From a virus (lineage: Duplodnaviria > Heunggongvirae > Uroviricota > Caudoviricetes), in IMG/VR virus record IMGVR_UViG_645951847_000024: 41,294 bases of DNA, one strand, 5' to 3'. This document shows positions 34,625 through 41,294 of the stretch, one piece after another; within the stretch, counting starts at the first letter, position 1; each line of letters begins with the position of its first letter. The notes below the pieces were generated by a model, which had not been told where the DNA came from, ran no database searches, and was given only the letters and a program-made list of their open reading frames with translations. The translations under genes and the position numbers were made by a program.

Positions 34625-35140
34625 TCACCCCCTGACTCGCTTTTCAGCAGCATAAAACTCATCAGACAGAATTTCGGTCATTTTCTGATTTGCGGGTTTT
34701 ACGCCGCACTCAAGGTAAATCACATCGTCAACGCAGAACCACTTCACAGGGCCAAACATGATTGCCGAGAAATCAATACCCAGCCAGAACAACAGTGCAT
34801 CGGTTCTGGCATACGTGACGGGCGAATATTCACGCCACAGACTGTTAAGTTCGTCAGAGGCAACGCGCAGGGCTTTGGGAATACGTGATGTGCGCGGTGT
34901 GCAGCTCCAGCCATTCGACGCAGTCGGTTTTCGCCATAAGTCGCGATGAAAAGGATATTTGTCATCCATAAAGCGCAGCCCTTTAAAACAAAAGCCACTG
35001 ATACCGGATACAAATACCGACCGGCACGCAACATTCAGCACGGCCTCAAGGCGTTTTGCCTCATCCTTAACTTTCTGGCAGTCCTGCTGATATTTTTGCC
35101 ACGCGGCCAGCGCGGAAGGGTTTGATGTTTTAAAGAACAT
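34625..35140 (-). CDS. Hypothetical protein (early region)
   Basis: 171 aa; tightly packed with neighbours. Confidence 0.45.
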   Translation of the reverse strand: MFFKTSNPSALAAWQKYQQDCQKVKDEAKRLEAVLNVACRSVFVSGISGFCFKGLRFMDDKYPFHRDLWRKPTASNGWSCTPRTSRIPKALRVASDELNSLWREYSPVTYARTDALLFWLGIDFSAIMFGPVKWFCVDDVIYLECGVKPANQKMTEILSDEFYAAEKRVRG

Positions 35141-35673
35141 TACGCCACCTCCGCAGATATCCCGGCAGGCGCGGCCGTCCGGTCAACAATCAGGTAACGC
35201 AGAACGCGCGAGGTGATATTCCAGCCGCTTAAACCGCAGATAATGACACCCAGGCGTATGTCGATATACGCCATCACAAACTGGGGCACGCCTTCTTTCA
35301 TGGCCTGCTCATCAACTTCAGCCACCACATAAACGGTTTCACAGGTCAGAACGCCCTGAGCAAATTCCCACGCCATTGACGGAATATCATGCCCCTCAAT
35401 CCACGGCAGGGATTTTCTGAAGCTGCACCACTGAACATCATCAGCCGCACCTTCCTGGCTGCATTTGCGACGAACCGGCTGCACCGGGCGGGGACGCGGA
35501 ATATCATAAAAACCGTTACATTCCGTCAGCACCCCGGCATCGACCGCATCACGCAGAAAATAAACCATCGAGGATGGCGGCATATTCATTTTTTCAGCCA
35601 GAATGCCGCAGGTCAGACGCCCGTAAATACTCAGCCAGTTTTTAACCCCTTCAAGCACTTTTGCACCAATCAT
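35140..35673 (-). CDS. Hypothetical protein with N-terminal winged-helix-like segment (early region)
   Basis: 177 aa; MVYFLRDAVDAGVL-type helix near N-terminus. Confidence 0.45.
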   Translation of the reverse strand: MIGAKVLEGVKNWLSIYGRLTCGILAEKMNMPPSSMVYFLRDAVDAGVLTECNGFYDIPRPRPVQPVRRKCSQEGAADDVQWCSFRKSLPWIEGHDIPSMAWEFAQGVLTCETVYVVAEVDEQAMKEGVPQFVMAYIDIRLGVIICGLSGWNITSRVLRYLIVDRTAAPAGISAEVA

Positions 35674-35676
35674 GAA

Positions 35677-36219
35677 TTATTCCTCCGTCAGCGCCACATA
35701 TTCAGAATGTTTAATCTCCTGGCATTCTTCAGGAATACCCCCTTTTATTTCCCTGCCATAAGCGCCTACTTTAAACACCACGCACAGGGCATCACGGGAG
35801 AGCGACGGGGTCCACCAGGAGTCCATGTTAAACATGGAGGGGATTCTCATTACCCCCAGCTTTTCACAGAGCCAGACAAGGAAATCAGGACGCTTTCTTA
35901 ACTCGCGTTCAGCGGCTTCAATCATTGCGGCAATCGCCGGTCCTTCAGGGCATGACTCATCAGGTCTGGCAATAAAGCACGGTCCGTCCCCGATAAAAGC
36001 CACATCATCGCGCTTACGCCAGCCCGCAGGCAGAGCACCAGAAAAATAAAACTCACTGATTACGTCCATGGCAAACGGCTTTAAGCGCAATCCGGCAGCG
36101 CCTGTATTTTTCAGTAATGCCCGAAGAATACTGTTGCGTAGCGGTAAAACAGTCTGTTGATATTTGGTGAAATATTTATTTGTCTGCACACGGTCTAATT
36201 TGAAATAAAAATATGCCAT
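35677..36219 (-). CDS. Hypothetical protein (early region, downstream of gam)
   Basis: 180 aa. Confidence 0.45.
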   Translation of the reverse strand: MAYFYFKLDRVQTNKYFTKYQQTVLPLRNSILRALLKNTGAAGLRLKPFAMDVISEFYFSGALPAGWRKRDDVAFIGDGPCFIARPDESCPEGPAIAAMIEAAERELRKRPDFLVWLCEKLGVMRIPSMFNMDSWWTPSLSRDALCVVFKVGAYGREIKGGIPEECQEIKHSEYVALTEE

Positions 36220-36316
36220 ATATCCTGTTCCTTATTTTCAGTTTACAGGCGCAGGCAGTCCCCTGACGCGAGCGCCATACTTAAAACGATGTGATATTTA
36301 AAGATTTAATGCGGTG

Positions 36317-36847
36317 TTATTTATTCAGTCCGGCGTCCTGTTCAAAAGGCTCGACATAAAAACTTTCAGCGCCTTTATTCACCTTAATACCGGCAATGCC
36401 TTTCACTGCATCCGGCTCCGCTAGGACCGCTTCCTTGTTCACTTCCTCTTTCGTGCGGATGAATCGCTCAAGCCCCATACGGCGCAGCATTTCAATCACA
36501 CCTTCCACATCACGGCTGACGCTGCATGATGGATTTCCCAGCCGCCATGACACTGTTCCGGTGGTCAGATTGGCTGTTTTGGTTTTGCCGCCGTTCGTCA
36601 GCTCATCGCGGTTGGTTTTGCACCAGTCCTGAATCCCCTTAAAAAGCACTTTGATTTCTTTTTTAAGGTTTTCAATCTGCGGCGTATAACGGGCGGTGAT
36701 TTCTGCCACTTCATCATTCATCGCCGTTTCCAGCCGTAGCGCCTCTCGCTGAATATCGCCCAGGGTACGGATATCGCGGCTGACTTCTTCGCGGGTCTGC
36801 GGTGCAGCCTCGGCTGCGGCCTTTAATTTTGTAACACGTTTAGCCAT
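36317..36847 (-). CDS. gam: Gam, host-nuclease (RecBCD) inhibitor, Mu Gam-like DNA end-binding protein
   Basis: 176 aa; position and size as Mu Gam; recognised from memory of the family. Confidence 0.8.
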   Translation of the reverse strand: MAKRVTKLKAAAEAAPQTREEVSRDIRTLGDIQREALRLETAMNDEVAEITARYTPQIENLKKEIKVLFKGIQDWCKTNRDELTNGGKTKTANLTTGTVSWRLGNPSCSVSRDVEGVIEMLRRMGLERFIRTKEEVNKEAVLAEPDAVKGIAGIKVNKGAESFYVEPFEQDAGLNK

Positions 36848-36858
36848 TTTGTTTTTCC

Positions 36859-37152
36859 TTATTGCAGTGTGCCTGATGCTTTATGCACGCGGTGGCGTTT
36901 AATGATGGCATCCGCCCCAAAAGCCTGTACAGATGCCTGAAATTCCGCTGAGAGAAACTGAATAATTTCAGGACTGTGATACTGGAGAATACTTGCATAA
37001 ACGCCACAGAGTGACGTCGGCCTGTTATTCGTATCACGTTCTGTTTTTACATCCACACCAATCTTTTCATGCACTTCAACACAGTCATTGCCTGCCGGTT
37101 TTTCGTCATGCGAAACATGCTTAAATTCAAAAATAACGCGTACTTTGCTCAT
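36859..37152 (-). CDS. Hypothetical protein, tandem paralogue 2 (MSKVRVIFEFKHV...)
   Basis: Start at internal ATG; N-terminus shares MSKV-R-IFE-K with the upstream gene. Confidence 0.45.
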   Translation of the reverse strand: MSKVRVIFEFKHVSHDEKPAGNDCVEVHEKIGVDVKTERDTNNRPTSLCGVYASILQYHSPEIIQFLSAEFQASVQAFGADAIIKRHRVHKASGTLQ

Positions 37153-37156
37153 GGAA

Positions 37157-37429
37157 TTACCCCTGCTGATTAAATTCATTACCTTTAATAACCCCGGAAC
37201 GCATGCTCATATCTTTCATGAGCGCACTGGCTTTCATTGCCACAAGTTCAGCAAAGTCTCTGCTTTCCGCGAGCATAACCACCCCAAAAATCATGGCGGG
37301 TCCATCACCTTTCTGCTTTATCCCGGTTGAACGTATGTCCAGACTTACCCCCATGCGCACTGTTCCATCAGCGTTTTTATGGATAACGTGCTCCTTGTAT
37401 TCGAAAATAATGCGTACGACTTTACTCAT
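37157..37429 (-). CDS. Hypothetical protein, tandem paralogue 1 (MSKVVRIIFEYKEHV...)
   Basis: 90 aa; N-terminal 13 residues nearly identical to the downstream gene, remainder divergent. Confidence 0.45.
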   Translation of the reverse strand: MSKVVRIIFEYKEHVIHKNADGTVRMGVSLDIRSTGIKQKGDGPAMIFGVVMLAESRDFAELVAMKASALMKDMSMRSGVIKGNEFNQQG

Positions 37430-37707
37430 CCTCTGGTCCTCGTTCTGTTTGGATAACTGACCCGGCGTCTGACCTCACGGCAGAACCGAATCATGGCATT
37501 AAAGGCTTCTTCCTCCGTCACCGCTTCCGGTATCCCCGGAACCAGTAACTGCTCCTGTTCATCACGTCCATGACGCGCCATAACCTCAATCACATGCCGT
37601 ACCGTGGCAGGCTTTCCGGCAACTATCGGCAATGCACCTTCCGGCAGGACGTAACCAAACTCAATAAGACCACTCGACCACGCCCATGCAATGAGATTTT
37701 TTTTCAC
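37426..37707 (-). CDS. Hypothetical protein (early region)
   Basis: 93 aa. Confidence 0.4.
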   Translation of the reverse strand: MKKNLIAWAWSSGLIEFGYVLPEGALPIVAGKPATVRHVIEVMARHGRDEQEQLLVPGIPEAVTEEEAFNAMIRFCREVRRRVSYPNRTRTRG

Positions 37708-37708
37708 C

Positions 37709-37975
37709 TCACACCTCCCAGTAAACCGTGCAGCCGCTGATGCGGGTGGCCTTCACACGGCGGCGCAGGCCGTTGGTCTGTATGGTGATTTCAATTTCAC
37801 CGGTTCCCTGCACGTTGCCTACCGGCGGCGTGGTTTTCAGTGCAAAACGTTGCGGATAGCGCTTACTGCGTTCCAGTACCGCACCGGCAAGTTCGGTCAG
37901 ACGGCGCGCGCTGTTCAGGGAGTCGAATAAATTCATTTTGTTACCGCAGGATTGCATATTCATATAACACCTCAT
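37709..37975 (-). CDS. Hypothetical protein (early region)
   Basis: 88 aa; start uncertain. Confidence 0.4.
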   Translation of the reverse strand: MRCYMNMQSCGNKMNLFDSLNSARRLTELAGAVLERSKRYPQRFALKTTPPVGNVQGTGEIEITIQTNGLRRRVKATRISGCTVYWEV

Positions 37976-38203
37976 TTAGCTGACTTGTTTCGCACCAACA
38001 GAACGGCATATTCCGCTGTAAACGTCTGTCGCACCTTCGCGATCAAGTCCGGCAGATATCACCATTCGTGTGCGGTCATTAAATTCAAAAAGTAAATCGC
38101 CACATTCTTTATTTTCGGCCAGTGAAATCACCTTCACGTTATCGAAATTAACCAGGTAAAAGCGTCCGTAAATATCAGGAATATTAAATACCGCCATAAT
38201 CAC
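37976..38203 (-). CDS. Small protein immediately after B; Kil-like by position and size only
   Basis: 75 aa directly downstream of the B gene, where Mu encodes the 74-aa Kil; no sequence recall to confirm. Confidence 0.35.
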   Translation of the reverse strand: MIMAVFNIPDIYGRFYLVNFDNVKVISLAENKECGDLLFEFNDRTRMVISAGLDREGATDVYSGICRSVGAKQVS

Positions 38204-39132
38204 ACCTGTGAGAGTAATTCAGGGTTGGTATAAACCTCTTTAAAGGCCGCATTAATATGTTTTTCTGTCAGCGCCGCGCCTTCACCGCTGGCGGTGAGCC
38301 ACGCCTGGTTAAGCGTATGTGTCAGAACGCGTAACGCTCCCGGCTTTTCAGCGATAGCCTGCATGACGGCCAGCTCGGCCTCACCACTGATCCCCCACGC
38401 CCTGGCAATGGCCAGCACATCCGCCTTTTTGGCCTTGCGAAGTTGTTTTGTACGGGCAAGACGGCTGAACAGGCGCGATAAATCATCAAAGGCGCGGCGT
38501 CCACCTTTAAACAATCCGCGCGGGTTACCAATAAGCACCATCCCGATCCCCGTGGCGTCCTGAATTGCCCGGAGTTGCTCCAGACCGTCAATACCCAGAT
38601 GATCCGCCTCATCCACAATCACCAGTCCACGCGTTCCCATCAGGCGACGGCGGATGGCGCGGGATAATGCCCCTTTGTTCGCGCGGGTGTAATCAATCCC
38701 CAGCGCATCGGCCAGCTCCAGCAGACACTCCGTGACGCTGGAGTGCGCGGGTGACAGGGTGATCATCCAGGTGTTTGGTTGCTCCTGGCAGTAATTACGG
38801 GCAGTGGCCGTTTTACCCACACCCGGTACGCCCACAATAACGTTAATACAGCCCATCAGACGAACCGCCTGAAACAGTGCGCGCAGCTCCTGGACTGTCT
38901 GCGTTTCCACAAACTGCGGCGGTTCCGGCAGTGCGCTTTGTTTATTCCAGTTTTCATACCAGGAACGCAGGGAAGCAGCCACAGCGGCGTTATCGCCTTT
39001 ATATTTCCCCTTGCGGAAAGCCGATAATGTGCCGTCGGAAATTCCCGCCTCTCTGGCGATGGCATACTGCGTCAGTACGCCGCCATCAATAAGTTCATCA
39101 ATGGTCTTGATTACATCGTTAATATCAGTCAT
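38200..39132 (-). CDS. B: Transposition ATPase B (MuB-like AAA+ target DNA activator)
   Basis: 310 aa; N-terminal HTH (VLTQYAIAREAGISDGTLS), Walker A GVPGVGKT, Walker B LVIVDEADHL; follows the transposase gene. Confidence 0.9.
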   Translation of the reverse strand: MTDINDVIKTIDELIDGGVLTQYAIAREAGISDGTLSAFRKGKYKGDNAAVAASLRSWYENWNKQSALPEPPQFVETQTVQELRALFQAVRLMGCINVIVGVPGVGKTATARNYCQEQPNTWMITLSPAHSSVTECLLELADALGIDYTRANKGALSRAIRRRLMGTRGLVIVDEADHLGIDGLEQLRAIQDATGIGMVLIGNPRGLFKGGRRAFDDLSRLFSRLARTKQLRKAKKADVLAIARAWGISGEAELAVMQAIAEKPGALRVLTHTLNQAWLTASGEGAALTEKHINAAFKEVYTNPELLSQV

Positions 39133-39203
39133 ATTATTAACCTCTCATTTGATACCTTGTTTAATCAAATAACCTGAGTCGCCGCTCGGGTTATTTTTTT
39201 ATT

Positions 39204-41294
39204 TCAGGCCAGCGGGTCATTTTCTTTTAATTTCGCTTCCAGCAACTGCAATCCCCGCTGGAAATTACGCTCGTATTCTTCATCAGGTTCATCGTCAGCG
39301 ACCGGTTGCTGAACGGTCACCGTATTACCCACAGGGCGGTATATGTTTTCCAGCCAGGGCTCCTGCGGCTTGTGCTCCAGCACGTTGACAACCTCATCCT
39401 CGGCATCACGGATTTTTTCCTCTGCGCGTTTACGCATGCCTTTAAGGCGTTGCTGCTGTTTGTAGTATTCCGCGCTGACCGGGAAGGCTTCGCGTTTATT
39501 GCCGTCCCATACCGCCTCGCAAATCACGCTGCCATCCAGGCGACGTACGGTAATTCGTTCGGCATCATGAATGTCATAGCTGATAAGCACCTTACGGCCA
39601 TGCTCGTCACGCAGCTCGGGCGCGTAGTAAATATTATTCAGCCAGCGTATTTCACAGCGTCTTACAGGGCGTTCCACCATCGGCCGGAACATATCCCGCA
39701 GCTCAACATCGGACAGCCATTCAATTTCCGTGTCCTCTTCCGCCAGGCGTTTTTTTCTGAACTCCGCCGGGCTGTAATGCTTGCCGTTCGGCTTCACCGG
39801 TAATTCATCGTGCGGCCGGTTGTTGTACCACTCAACACCGTCACGAATGGCATCAATCAGTTCAGACCAGGACGGTAAATCACGCATCGCTGACTGCTGC
39901 CGGGCGTTCAGCCGTTTGCCCTGTTGCAGGGCAGTAAATGCCGAGCGTAAATCGCGGTTGGTTTTGCGTAACGTCTCGCGATCTGCACCTTTCCCGAAAT
40001 AGGTGCGGTATTTACGGGCTATGCGCATCGGTAATGTGCGGTTAAGCCGTTCGATAATGCCTCGTCCCTGCGGATTACCGGCAATCCCGGTCGGGTGATT
40101 AATCCCCAGTCGCGGCAGTATCCCCACAACCTCCTTATCCAGGATGTCGGCGGTTTCCCCGGAGCCGTTATCCGAGTAATACAGAAACGGTTTGCCGTGA
40201 TGGCGAATGCCGTGCTGTATGGCACCGGCTACGGCGAAAACATTTTCAGCCAGGTCAAGGCTCCAGCCCACCACAAAGCGCGTGCCACCGTCGATAACAA
40301 AGGTCACTTCCGGTGCAAATGGCCGACCGTGAACCGGGTGTGCGCATTTCAGCTTCATGCCGTGACCGTCACCAATCCAGACATAATTCACCGGCATTCT
40401 GGACCAGTCGCGGCGCGTGAATCCCTCAAGCTGGCGGTATTCACTGCCGGTCACCCGGCCTTTTTGTTTCACCACTTCCGGCAGTTTCTTCATTGCGCGG
40501 CGAATGGTGTCATAAGACGGCATGATATCGAGCATATAAGGCTCATCAGCGTGCCGGTGCTGCCATTCAGCGACAAAATCCTCGTAAGCCTCGGTCATTG
40601 GTCGGCCGTTTGACTGGCGATACTGCGCCAGAAATTCGGGCAGCCAGTTAATATCTTCGGCTTTTATTTCCTGGCGCTTACCCGGTGCCAGTAAAAGCAG
40701 GCGTTCAGCGGCGTTCTGCGCCTTGTTAAAGGCCGCAATCCAGCGTTTCAGCGTGATTTCACTTAACGCGCGGCTGTTTCCCTTTTTGGCGTTCGCCGTC
40801 TCAACCATTGCCACAATGCGCTCGTCCAGCTGCGAACGTGCCAGGTTGTCAACGATAAACCGGATAGCCTTCGCACAGCTGAAACCAGGTTGTTGCGCGA
40901 CTTTCAGAACTTCGCTGACGATCGCGATTCGTGCATCAGCCACCTGGCGCTGGTTTTCAGTCAGGGCATTAAGGCGTTCGACCATCAGTTGTGGTGATCC
41001 GCGATATGCCTCCACCGCATCAACCACGGCAGGCGAGCGTCTGGCCTTTGTCACCACTGGAGCCGGTGATTCATCGACTTTTTGAGTCATCAGTTGCAGG
41101 GCGTAGCGTTCACGTAATGCCTGCTGCGTCACTTCAGGTAAACAGTCGATGCTGTATTCAGTTGCTTTAGAGCCTGAGCGACGACGGGAACAACAGCTTT
41201 TCCCTTGTACGTAACGTTGTAATGCCTGGCGAATACCTTTTGTTGTAGCAGGCATTCCGGGCGCGCCAATCAGTTCTTTTGCAATGACATACAT
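39204..41294 (-). CDS. A: DDE transposase A (MuA-like); start at or near window end
   Basis: 696 aa upstream of B; large multi-domain protein of the size and position of Mu A. Confidence 0.85.
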   Translation of the reverse strand: MYVIAKELIGAPGMPATTKGIRQALQRYVQGKSCCSRRRSGSKATEYSIDCLPEVTQQALRERYALQLMTQKVDESPAPVVTKARRSPAVVDAVEAYRGSPQLMVERLNALTENQRQVADARIAIVSEVLKVAQQPGFSCAKAIRFIVDNLARSQLDERIVAMVETANAKKGNSRALSEITLKRWIAAFNKAQNAAERLLLLAPGKRQEIKAEDINWLPEFLAQYRQSNGRPMTEAYEDFVAEWQHRHADEPYMLDIMPSYDTIRRAMKKLPEVVKQKGRVTGSEYRQLEGFTRRDWSRMPVNYVWIGDGHGMKLKCAHPVHGRPFAPEVTFVIDGGTRFVVGWSLDLAENVFAVAGAIQHGIRHHGKPFLYYSDNGSGETADILDKEVVGILPRLGINHPTGIAGNPQGRGIIERLNRTLPMRIARKYRTYFGKGADRETLRKTNRDLRSAFTALQQGKRLNARQQSAMRDLPSWSELIDAIRDGVEWYNNRPHDELPVKPNGKHYSPAEFRKKRLAEEDTEIEWLSDVELRDMFRPMVERPVRRCEIRWLNNIYYAPELRDEHGRKVLISYDIHDAERITVRRLDGSVICEAVWDGNKREAFPVSAEYYKQQQRLKGMRKRAEEKIRDAEDEVVNVLEHKPQEPWLENIYRPVGNTVTVQQPVADDEPDEEYERNFQRGLQLLEAKLKENDPLA

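What the first reader, a model, noticed from the sequence alone, without database searches (positions are those of the whole stretch)
36859..37429. Tandem divergent paralogues in the early region
Two adjacent small genes begin with nearly identical N-termini (MSKVVRIIFEYKEHV / MSKVRVIFEFKHV) but diverge afterwards. This suggests duplication and diversification of an early, possibly host-targeting or anti-defence, protein next to gam.
Basis: seen in the sequence. Interest (0 to 1): 0.45.

Follow-up and report, generated by a model that had tools for sequence, protein, structure and literature searches.

The report
Tandem paralogous Mu-like early accessory genes
Two small adjacent genes just upstream of gam in an E. 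coli Mu-like prophage are true, anciently diverged duplicates of one fast-evolving early accessory gene of unknown function, which makes this a real but fairly ordinary piece of phage accessory-gene evolution.

Summary
On the minus strand, gene A (37157-37429, 90 aa) and gene B (36859-37152, 97 aa) lie between a 93-aa gene and gam. They sit in the early operon of an Sp18-type Mu-like prophage of E. coli.

Pairwise similarity is confined to about the first 17 residues (BLASTP E=8e-4; 6 of 5000 shuffles reach it). Profiles extend the homology to about 76 columns (hhalign 91%, E=1e-6). An HMM built only from distant B-like proteins picks A as the best non-B hit among 1505 six-frame ORFs (E=6e-4).

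B is the conserved positional orthologue. B-like genes (phrog_2230) occur once, directly upstream of gam or DUF3164, in all distant Mu-like prophages examined. A (phrog_4107) is an extra, more divergent copy seen only in the E. coli lineage.

Both copies are under purifying but relaxed selection (dN/dS 0.30 and 0.35, against 0.06-0.12 for neighbours). Both show deep allelic variation, and their alleles assort independently.

Function is unknown: no Pfam, NCBIfam or PDB match, and the AlphaFold models are low-confidence. One weak, unproven lead links the family to Mu gp7 (E6, "Gnarl2"), an O-antigen-altering accessory protein. I read them as small non-enzymatic host-binding accessory proteins. 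Interest is modest.

The parts
37157..37429 (-). Gene A, 90 aa (WP_000049432.1; phrog_4107). It is the lineage-specific, more divergent paralogue. Its ATG overlaps the stop of the upstream 93-aa gene (ATGA).
   Evidence: ORF; RefSeq CDS; phrog_4107 E=1.1e-61; dN/dS 0.30; homology to the B family.
36859..37152 (-). Gene B, 97 aa (WP_000049306.1; phrog_2230). It is the conserved positional orthologue of a gene found once upstream of gam or DUF3164 in other Mu-like prophages. The mechanical ORF runs to an ATG at 37179, but the conserved start is 37152.
   Evidence: ORF; RefSeq CDS; phrog_2230 E=6.2e-40; distant homologues with contexts; dN/dS 0.35.
37394..37417 (.). Copy 1 of the 24-nt direct repeat, covering codons 5-12 of gene A. 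It encodes the shared VRIIFEYK strand.
   Evidence: the repeat finder D1, 83% identity, spacing 274 nt; codon comparison.
37120..37143 (.). Copy 2 of the 24-nt direct repeat, covering codons 4-11 of gene B. It encodes VRVIFEFK.
   Evidence: the repeat finder D1.
37426..37707 (-). Upstream flanking gene, 93 aa (phrog_1518). In distant prophages its homologue is followed directly by the single B-like gene.
36317..36847 (-). Downstream flanking gene gam (Mu Gam, host-nuclease inhibitor). It anchors the conserved position of B.
   Evidence: PF07352 E=1.5e-41; phrog_491.

Best explanation
Genes A and B are genuine tandem paralogues in the semi-essential early operon of an Sp18-type Mu-like prophage of E. 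coli. The gene order is MuB, 75-aa gene, Kil-like gene, 93-aa gene, A, B, Gam.

The ancestral state is one gene of the phrog_2230 family placed immediately upstream of gam. In the E. coli lineage that gene was duplicated in tandem. B stayed close to the family consensus. A diverged asymmetrically until only the N-terminal beta-strand motif (MSK-V-R-[IV]-IFE-[FY]-K) is recognisable by eye.

Both copies are co-transcribed with the transposition genes and are closely spaced with their neighbours: an ATGA overlap upstream of A and a 4-nt gap between A and B. Each encodes a small soluble protein of about 90-97 aa, predicted at low confidence as a long N-terminal beta-hairpin followed by a C-terminal helix. 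Across the family no set of conserved polar residues is present that would suggest catalysis.

Inferred, not shown: they act as stoichiometric binders of host (or phage) macromolecules. On this reading they are dispensable host-takeover or counter-defence accessory proteins, and the duplication plus deep allelic classes supply alternative specificities. If the weak similarity to Mu gp7/Gnarl2 is real, the target pathway could be O-antigen/LPS biosynthesis.

I put paralogy at about 0.85-0.9, in-situ duplication rather than import at about 0.6-0.7, a host-binding accessory role at about 0.4, and a Gnarl2-like role at about 0.15.
For: Identity and context:
- The region is 100% identical to O157:H7 chromosomes, and the pair is present in 232 of 5426 complete E. 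coli genomes.
- RefSeq calls both CDSs.
- MuB, Kil-like and Gam neighbours are confirmed.

Homology between A and B:
- BLASTP E=8e-4 and 6 of 5000 shuffles.
- hhalign of the A family against the B family gives 82%, E=1e-5 over 44 columns.
- Against B plus distant homologues it gives 91%, E=1.1e-6 over 76 columns.
- An HMM of the distant group alone ranks A first after the B-like ORFs among 1505 six-frame ORFs (E=5.7e-4; the L054 allele 4.3e-5; next hit E=6). It aligns A residues 1-73/77.

Single copy elsewhere:
- All distant homologues (25-35% identity) are single-copy directly upstream of gam or DUF3164.
- No third copy exists in the window.

Both copies are functional:
- Both are intact in 38-40 IMG/VR contigs with constant spacing.
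- dN/dS is 0.30 and 0.35, against 0.06-0.12 for MuB, kil, the 93-aa gene and gam.

Accessory character:
- Amino-acid identity ranges 79-100% for A and 58-99% for B, while neighbours stay at 92-100%.
- One single-copy variant (L082), an A-B deletion fusion (P0036) and frameshifted copies are seen.

Other points:
- There is no minus-strand promoter or terminator inside the pair.
- Secondary structure agrees between the two models: strands 4-18/24-38 with helix 57-73 in A, strands 4-19/25-39 with helix 61-78 in B.
- N-terminal residues K3, R, E and K are shared by A and E. coli B but not by the distant group (MSNKxQVIFTFE).
Against: - Pairwise identity outside the first 15 aligned columns is only 10-13%, so homology of the C-terminal two-thirds rests on profile methods with small, shallow alignments.
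- Both AlphaFold2 models are low-confidence (pLDDT 54.9 and 53.7). They disagree in the 44-57 segment, and their fold searches share no hits, so there is no independent structural confirmation.
- The A-family HMM scores some distant B-like proteins slightly higher than E. coli B (14.5 against 7.0 bits). That fits import of A, or very asymmetric divergence, as well as a recent in-situ duplication.
- The functional inference has no direct support. There is no Pfam, NCBIfam or PDB hit, and the Gnarl2 link is not significant by hhalign (E=0.047-0.46).
Confidence: 0.7

Rival explanations
1. The shared N-terminus is a chance match or a low-complexity artefact, and the two proteins are unrelated.
For: Outside residues 1-17 the pairwise local score equals the shuffle mean (21 against 21.6).
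Against: - hhalign gives 91% and E=1.1e-6 over 76 columns.
- An independent HMM of distant homologues hits A at P=2.4e-7 over A residues 1-73.
- A is the top non-family hit of 1505 ORFs.
- The two models share the same predicted secondary-structure order.
Confidence: 0.05
2. A and B are homologous, but A was not made by duplication in place. It was imported by recombination from a divergent Mu-like phage, and the striking N-terminal identity reflects later 5' gene conversion or nucleotide-level constraint.
For: - The A-family HMM scores distant B-like proteins (14.5 and 10.0 bits) above E. coli B (7.0 bits).
- Excluding the first 15 columns, A is 10-13% identical to B but 11-20% to the distant group.
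- Eight of 11 identical residues in the N-terminus use the same codon, against 4.75 expected (P=0.04).
- The region is visibly mosaic, and A and B alleles assort freely.
Against: - No lineage with an A-like gene as sole copy was found in 5.8 billion proteins, IMG/VR or GTDB genomes.
- Every complete A gene lies next to B.
- The score differences are tiny.
- The synonymous differences AGT/AGC, TTC/TTT and CAC/CAT argue against recent conversion.
Confidence: 0.25
3. A and B form an obligate heteromeric pair: a homodimer that became a heterodimer after duplication and acts as one unit.
For: The two genes are always adjacent with fixed 4-nt spacing. The predicted long beta-hairpins could pair between subunits.
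Against: - A and B allele classes occur in all combinations, for example A 99% with B 58%, and A 81% with B 93% or 59%. This argues against a co-adapted interface.
- L082 carries B alone.
- All distant lineages function with one copy.
Confidence: 0.12
4. The proteins serve the phage's own DNA transactions rather than host takeover. Candidates are the genetically defined but unassigned arm or cim functions of the Mu semi-essential region, or a nucleic-acid-binding module with a partial RNase H-like/HicB-like beta-beta-beta-alpha fold.
For: [quoted passage not shown]
Against: - No conserved acidic catalytic residues are present.
- High allelic turnover and raised dN/dS are atypical for core replication factors.
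- The gene is frameshifted in some prophages.
Confidence: 0.15

Closest known systems
PHROG families phrog_2230 (B) and phrog_4107 (A), both uncharacterised
   Same: Full-length, highly significant matches: B to phrog_2230 at E=6.2e-40 and A to phrog_4107 at E=1.1e-61. The distant B-like proteins also fall in phrog_2230 (E=1e-14 to 1e-24).
   Different: PHROGs keeps the two as separate families with no function. Here they are shown to be remotely homologous and to form a tandem pair in one lineage.
Mu gp7 (Mup07/E6, NP_050611.1), named Gnarl2 by Silas et al. 2025, Nat Commun (PMC12373910)
   Same: - It is a small (87 aa) protein of the Mu early region between kil and gam.
- Its motif register is similar: M-[AS]-K-V-x-[IV]-x-[IF]-K at the N-terminus and S-x-x-I-I at the start of the helix.
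- gp7 hits phrog_2230 at E=0.009 over gp7 1-78 against profile positions 1-80 of 89.
- A superfamily HMM ranks gp7 first among about 2020 non-family ORFs.
- Gnarl2 is an experimentally supported accessory protein: its expression downshifts O-antigen bands and sensitises wild E. coli to T5.
   Different: - Homology is not established: hhalign gives E=0.047-0.46, the HMM scores are 1.7-6.8 bits, and tblastn finds no match in Mu.
- The Mu gene order differs, with gp8 and gp9 between gp7 and gam.
- A and B were not in the published accessory-gene set, so no phenotype is known for them.
Mu semi-essential early region accessory genes (kil, gam, sot, arm, cim, gemA/B)
   Same: A and B lie in the same operon and region. 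They are non-structural, small, variable between Mu-like phages and largely uncharacterised (PMC3820752; PMC4553209).
   Different: A and B match none of the molecularly assigned genes. Kil and Gam are the neighbouring genes.
Fast-evolving phage accessory genes that expand by tandem duplication, such as anti-defence loci (from general knowledge)
   Same: The genes are small, have a raised dN/dS and cassette-like allelic classes inside otherwise near-identical genomes. They show lineage-specific duplication and occasional loss.
   Different: No defence system or host target has been identified. There is no similarity to any described anti-defence protein in the libraries available here.

Membership tests
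phrog_4107 (gene A) | Full-length match to the family HMM | tested here: met
   E=1.1e-61, 206 bits, residues 1-90 against profile 1-90.
phrog_2230 (gene B) | Full-length match to the family HMM | tested here: met
   E=6.2e-40, residues 3-97 against profile 1-88 of 89.
phrog_2230 (gene B) | Conserved position immediately upstream of gam or DUF3164 in a Mu-like early operon | tested here: met
   This holds in the window and in loci L084, L086, L088, L090-L102.
A as a remote member of the B (phrog_2230) superfamily | Significant collinear profile similarity over most of the length | tested here: met
   hhalign gives 91% and E=1.1e-6 over 76 columns. The distant-only HMM gives E=5.7e-4 in 1505 ORFs and P=2.4e-7. 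A direct hmmscan of A against phrog_2230 gave no hit at E<=10 for the window allele, although 1 of 11 A-family members matched.
A as a remote member of the B (phrog_2230) superfamily | Same three-dimensional fold | tested here: inconclusive
   AF2 pLDDT is 54.9 and 53.7. The beta-hairpin and C-terminal helix agree, but the middle segment differs. The fold searches share no hits.
Gnarl2 / Mu gp7 (phrog_10252) | Sequence homology to NP_050611.1 | tested here: inconclusive
   gp7 against phrog_2230 gives E=0.009. hhalign gives E=0.047-0.46. The reciprocal HMM ranks are 1st and 2nd, but at E=0.89 and 2.4.
Gnarl2 / Mu gp7 (phrog_10252) | Expression alters the O-antigen ladder and sensitises wild E. 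coli to T5 | not testable with these tools
   The phenotype is described in PMC12373910. A and B are absent from that screen's gene list.
Any curated protein family (Pfam-A, NCBIfam) or solved structure | Match above the curated threshold | tested here: not met
   No Pfam family matched A, B or any of 38 family members beyond scattered E>0.05 noise. NCBIfam gave none. The PDB sequence profile search gave only spurious hits.
RNase H-like / HicB-like beta-beta-beta-alpha module | Structural match of a confident model, with the same topology in both paralogues | tested here: inconclusive

The most novel reading that the evidence does not exclude
A and B, together with the whole phrog_2230 family, are remote relatives of Mu gp7/Gnarl2. 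They would be small stand-alone effectors that bind enzymes of O-antigen/LPS biosynthesis and remodel the cell surface, serving for example superinfection exclusion or avoidance of readsorption. On this reading, the tandem duplication and the deep allelic classes in E. coli prophages track the diversity of O-antigen pathways among serotypes, including O157.
Probability: 0.13. Interest if true: 0.6.

Novelty: new member of a known kind. Interest (0 to 1): 0.35.

Why it matters
The semi-essential early region of Mu-type transposable phages is still mostly unassigned, although Mu is a classic model phage. This work shows that phrog_4107 and phrog_2230 are one superfamily with a fixed position upstream of gam, that the gene is duplicated only in the widespread EHEC-associated Sp18-type prophage, and that it evolves 3-4 times faster than its neighbours. 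That marks A and B as candidate host-interaction genes. They are cheap to test by expression in wild E. coli, followed by LPS gels, phage-sensitivity panels and pull-downs. If the tentative link to Gnarl2 holds, a newly described class of non-enzymatic O-antigen modifiers would extend to a prophage present in about 4% of complete E. coli genomes. If it does not hold, the pair remains an ordinary example of accessory-gene duplication.

Tried and rejected
- Pairwise tests alone (BLASTP and shuffles) could not decide homology beyond residue 17. I needed distant homologues from the 1.84-billion-protein HMMER search.
- Word-indexed searches of 5.8 billion proteins found only E. coli sequences at 56% identity or more.
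- tblastn against 50,697 phage records found only two Stx-phage records that carry an inserted Mu-like element, and nothing in Mu itself.
- AlphaFold2 on the shallow family alignments gave pLDDT of about 54.
- Pfam, NCBIfam and PDB sequence searches were negative.
- Rfam found no RNA family in 35000-41294. No internal promoter or terminator was found on the coding strand.
- The genome-contig scan failed with the full alignment. With the distant group it returned one Citrobacter braakii locus. The metagenome scan returned nothing, and the P0077 scan returned only itself.
- Mu gp7 as a family member was tested several ways and remains inconclusive.
- The pseudogene idea is rejected by dN/dS below 1 and intact ORFs across contigs.
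- A third paralogue in the window is rejected.
- The literature has no study of these two proteins.

Full report
**What the window is.** The region around the finding lies on the minus strand of the early operon of a Mu-like prophage. The order is MuB (38200-39132; PF09077 plus an AAA domain), a 75-aa gene (37976-38203), a Kil-like 88-aa gene (37709-37975, phrog_2679), a 93-aa gene (37426-37707, phrog_1518), gene A (37157-37429), gene B (36859-37152), Gam (36317-36847, PF07352 E=1.5e-41) and then homologues of Mu gp10-gp12. The 571-bp interval is 100% identical to many E. coli O157:H7 chromosomes and occurs in 232 of 5426 complete E. coli genomes. RefSeq annotates both ORFs as hypothetical proteins, WP_000049432.1 (90 aa) and WP_000049306.1 (97 aa). 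This is the Sp18-type Mu-like prophage of EHEC; the name comes from the literature.

**Checking the observation.**
- BLASTP aligns 18 of 55 residues at E=8e-4 for the single comparison.
- The Smith-Waterman score of 45 is reached by 6 of 5000 shuffles.
- After residue ~17 the pairwise score (21) equals the shuffle mean (21.6).
- The similarity is visible in DNA as a 24-nt direct repeat, 83% identical and spaced 274 nt.
- The mechanical ORF for B starts 27 nt further upstream. Every homologue begins at MSKV or MSNK, and in a natural variant that lacks A the upstream extension is different. The 97-aa reading is therefore right.

**Is it more than an N-terminal coincidence?** Both families are narrow in a word-indexed search of 5.8 billion proteins: only E. 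coli, at 56% identity or more. A profile of the A family against the B family gives hhalign 82% and E=1e-5, but only over 44 columns.

The exhaustive HMMER search of 1.84 billion representatives with the B-family profile found six distant relatives, P0071 and P0074-P0078, at 25-35% identity. Their sequences help to bridge the two families. They share with A a G-[LI] turn after strand 2, a G-P motif before a hydrophobic Y/F-[AG]-x-[IV]-[LM] segment, and the start of the helix.

With them added, hhalign of the A family against B plus the distant group rises to 91% and E=1.1e-6 over 76 columns. I searched it against all 1505 six-frame ORFs of at least 40 aa from the window and eleven related loci. 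After the B-like ORFs, the next hits are the A genes (E=4.3e-5 for the L054 allele and 5.7e-4 for the window allele), and the next hit after those is noise at E=6. The alignment spans A residues 1-73/77 and HMM positions 1-77/80 of 97, with P=2.4e-7. The reciprocal A-family HMM has a distant B-like protein as its best non-self hit (E=0.0023). I conclude that A and B are homologous over about three quarters of their length. Identity is about 20% overall and 10-13% outside the first 15 columns.

**Which copy is ancestral.** Every distant homologue sits as a single gene directly upstream of gam, or of a DUF3164 gene that replaces gam, and downstream of the Kil-like gene, with or without the 93-aa gene's homologue. 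This is seen in L084, L086, L088, L091-L094, in Citrobacter braakii L090 and in eight IMG/VR contigs. No second copy was detected in any of them.

- The distant-group HMM scores B at 57 bits and A at 17-20 bits. B is therefore the conserved positional orthologue, and A is the extra, faster-diverged copy.
- A was never found without B, except at contig ends.
- One IMG/VR contig (L082) has B only. In it, the sequence normally upstream of A is joined to B exactly at ATGAGYAAAGT. This is either the ancestral layout or a deletion between the two 5' repeats.
- A and E. coli B share N-terminal residues that the distant group lacks: MSK-VR-IFE[FY]K against MSNKxQVIFTFE. That favours duplication within the E. 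coli lineage.
- Outside the N-terminus A is no closer to B than to the distant proteins. In addition, 8 of 11 identical N-terminal residues use the same codon, against 4.75 expected (P=0.04). Import of a divergent allele followed by 5' conversion therefore cannot be excluded. I give it about 0.25.

**Are both genes functional, and how do they evolve?** In 38-40 IMG/VR contigs both ORFs are intact with invariant spacing.
- Pairwise dN/dS among alleles is 0.30 for A and 0.35 for B. The values for MuB, kil, the 93-aa gene and gam are 0.06-0.12. Both are therefore protein-coding and constrained, but 3-4 times more relaxed than their neighbours.
- Amino-acid identity to the window spans 79-100% for A. 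For B it spans 58-99%, in two deep allelic classes. MuB, kil, the 93-aa gene and gam stay at 92-100% in the same contigs.
- A and B allele classes occur in all combinations. This argues against a co-adapted obligate A-B complex.
- Loss events exist: the L082 variant, an A(1-49)-B(77-97) deletion fusion (P0036) and frameshifted B-like genes in three distant prophages. The gene is therefore dispensable.
- There is no promoter-like or terminator-like site on the coding strand within the pair and no Rfam hit.
- The ATGA overlap with the upstream gene and the 4-nt and 11-nt spacers fit co-transcription and closely linked translation within the early operon. This is inference from the sequence.

**Structure and function.**
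- AlphaFold2 on the family alignments gave low-confidence models (pLDDT 54.9 and 53.7). The secondary-structure order is the same in their better parts: a long beta-hairpin (A 4-18/24-38; B 4-19/25-39) and a C-terminal helix (A 57-73; B 61-78). The segment between differs and is below pLDDT 50.
- Pfam, NCBIfam and PDB sequence searches are negative for all family members.
- Across B plus the distant homologues, the invariant or near-invariant positions are hydrophobic residues, one Gly and a single Glu. That Glu aligns to Lys in A. Nothing suggests catalysis.

Putting this together, my best reading is a small non-enzymatic binding protein of the host-takeover or counter-defence type. The supporting features are small size, no catalytic signature, an early accessory-region position between kil and gam, raised dN/dS, cassette-like alleles, duplication and sporadic loss. 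I rate this reading at about 0.4.

**A functional lead.** Mu itself has no tblastn-detectable homologue. However, Mu gp7 (Mup07/E6, 87 aa) lies two genes after kil and looks similar by eye.
- It hits phrog_2230 at E=0.009 (library-corrected) over gp7 1-78 against profile positions 1-80 of 89.
- An HMM of A plus B plus the distant group ranks the gp7 ORF first among about 2020 non-family ORFs, but only at E=0.89. The gp7-family HMM ranks window B second at E=2.4.
- hhalign is not significant (E=0.047-0.46), although it always finds the same register.

Mu gp7 is orf63, named Gnarl2, in Silas et al. 2025 (PMC12373910). Its expression in wild E. coli (ECOR1, ECOR22) downshifts O-antigen bands and raises T5 infection 10^5-10^6-fold, and its target is unknown. 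A and B were not in that screen. I treat membership as inconclusive, with homology at about 0.4-0.5 and a shared function at about 0.13-0.15.

**Comparison with what is known, and novelty.** The two genes are already catalogued as hypothetical proteins and as two separate PHROGs of unknown function. The Mu semi-essential region is known to be variable and largely unassigned (PMC3820752; PMC4553209). Four points are new here:
- phrog_4107 and phrog_2230 are one superfamily.
- B is a positionally conserved gene upstream of gam or DUF3164.
- The tandem pair is specific to the E. coli Sp18-type lineage.
- Both copies evolve faster than their neighbours.

This is a new member of a known kind, namely fast-evolving phage accessory genes that expand by duplication. 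It is not a new kind of system.

**Verdict.**
- The duplication-and-diversification interpretation is supported.
- The anti-defence or host-targeting idea is plausible but untested.
- Interest is modest at 0.35. It would rise if the Gnarl2 connection or a host target were demonstrated.

Noticed in passing
L082 2860-3060 (IMGVR_UViG_2654587996_000001); equivalent to window 37140-37470: A natural variant carries B only. The sequence normally upstream of A is fused to B exactly at the shared ATGAGYAAAGT start. This is either the ancestral single-copy layout or an unequal crossover between the two 5' repeats.
   Followed up: partly
P0036 (E. coli protein, 67 aa); equivalent to window 36859-37429: A chimeric ORF made of A residues 1-49 joined to B residues 77-97. 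It reflects an in-frame deletion between the ...IFG of A and the ...AFG of B.
   Followed up: no
window 36859-37152 and loci L005, L012, L018, L021, L022, L036, L037, L074-L082: Gene B exists in two deep allelic classes of only 58-60% amino-acid identity. The flanking gam and the 93-aa gene stay at 94-100% identity. One protein (P0046) is a recombinant between the classes.
   Followed up: partly
window 37430-37510 and L054/L078 2643-2725: Prophages that lack the 93-aa gene (phrog_1518) still keep its last ~80 nt upstream of A. This stretch is in frame with A, so gene callers produce 116-117-aa versions of A (P0001, P0013) beginning MKLLHGSALSS....
   Followed up: partly
L084 5303-5941, L092-L094, L095-L099, L101, L102: In related Mu-like prophages the gam slot directly downstream of the B-like gene is occupied by a DUF3164 (PF11363) gene instead of Gam. 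This is a functional-cassette replacement at a fixed position.
   Followed up: no
window 35677-36219 compared with L011, L013-L015, L018, L028, L037, L038, L054, L078: The 180-aa gene downstream of gam (phrog_2260) is replaced in many otherwise near-identical prophages by an unrelated-looking 196-aa gene (23-24% identity). In other loci that gene is DUF5420-like.
   Followed up: no
L098, L099, L101 around 2410-2795: The single B-like gene is frameshifted, split into two ORFs, in three IMG/VR Mu-like prophages. This suggests it is dispensable.
   Followed up: no
First 12 codons of B-like genes in window, L074, L084, L086, L090-L094: The codons GTT ATT TTT encoding V-I-F near the start are the same in most lineages that are otherwise only 25-35% identical at the protein level. 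This may reflect a nucleotide-level constraint at the 5' end, or simply common codons.
   Followed up: partly
L089 1485-1748 (phage Mu Mup07/E6): Mu gp7 is the Gnarl2 O-antigen-altering accessory protein of Silas et al. 2025. It gives a weak full-length hit to the B family (phrog_2230, E=0.009).
   Followed up: partly
window 37426-37707: The 93-aa gene upstream of A belongs to phrog_1518, which PHROGs labels 'host nuclease inhibitor'. It has no Pfam or NCBIfam match, and the basis of that label was not checked.
   Followed up: no
LC727881.1 69429-71379 and LC727895.1 10358-12482: The only phage-database records that contain this region are two Stx-converting phage records. Both are annotated as carrying an inserted Mu-like phage, which means a Mu-like element transposed into a Stx prophage.
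   Followed up: no
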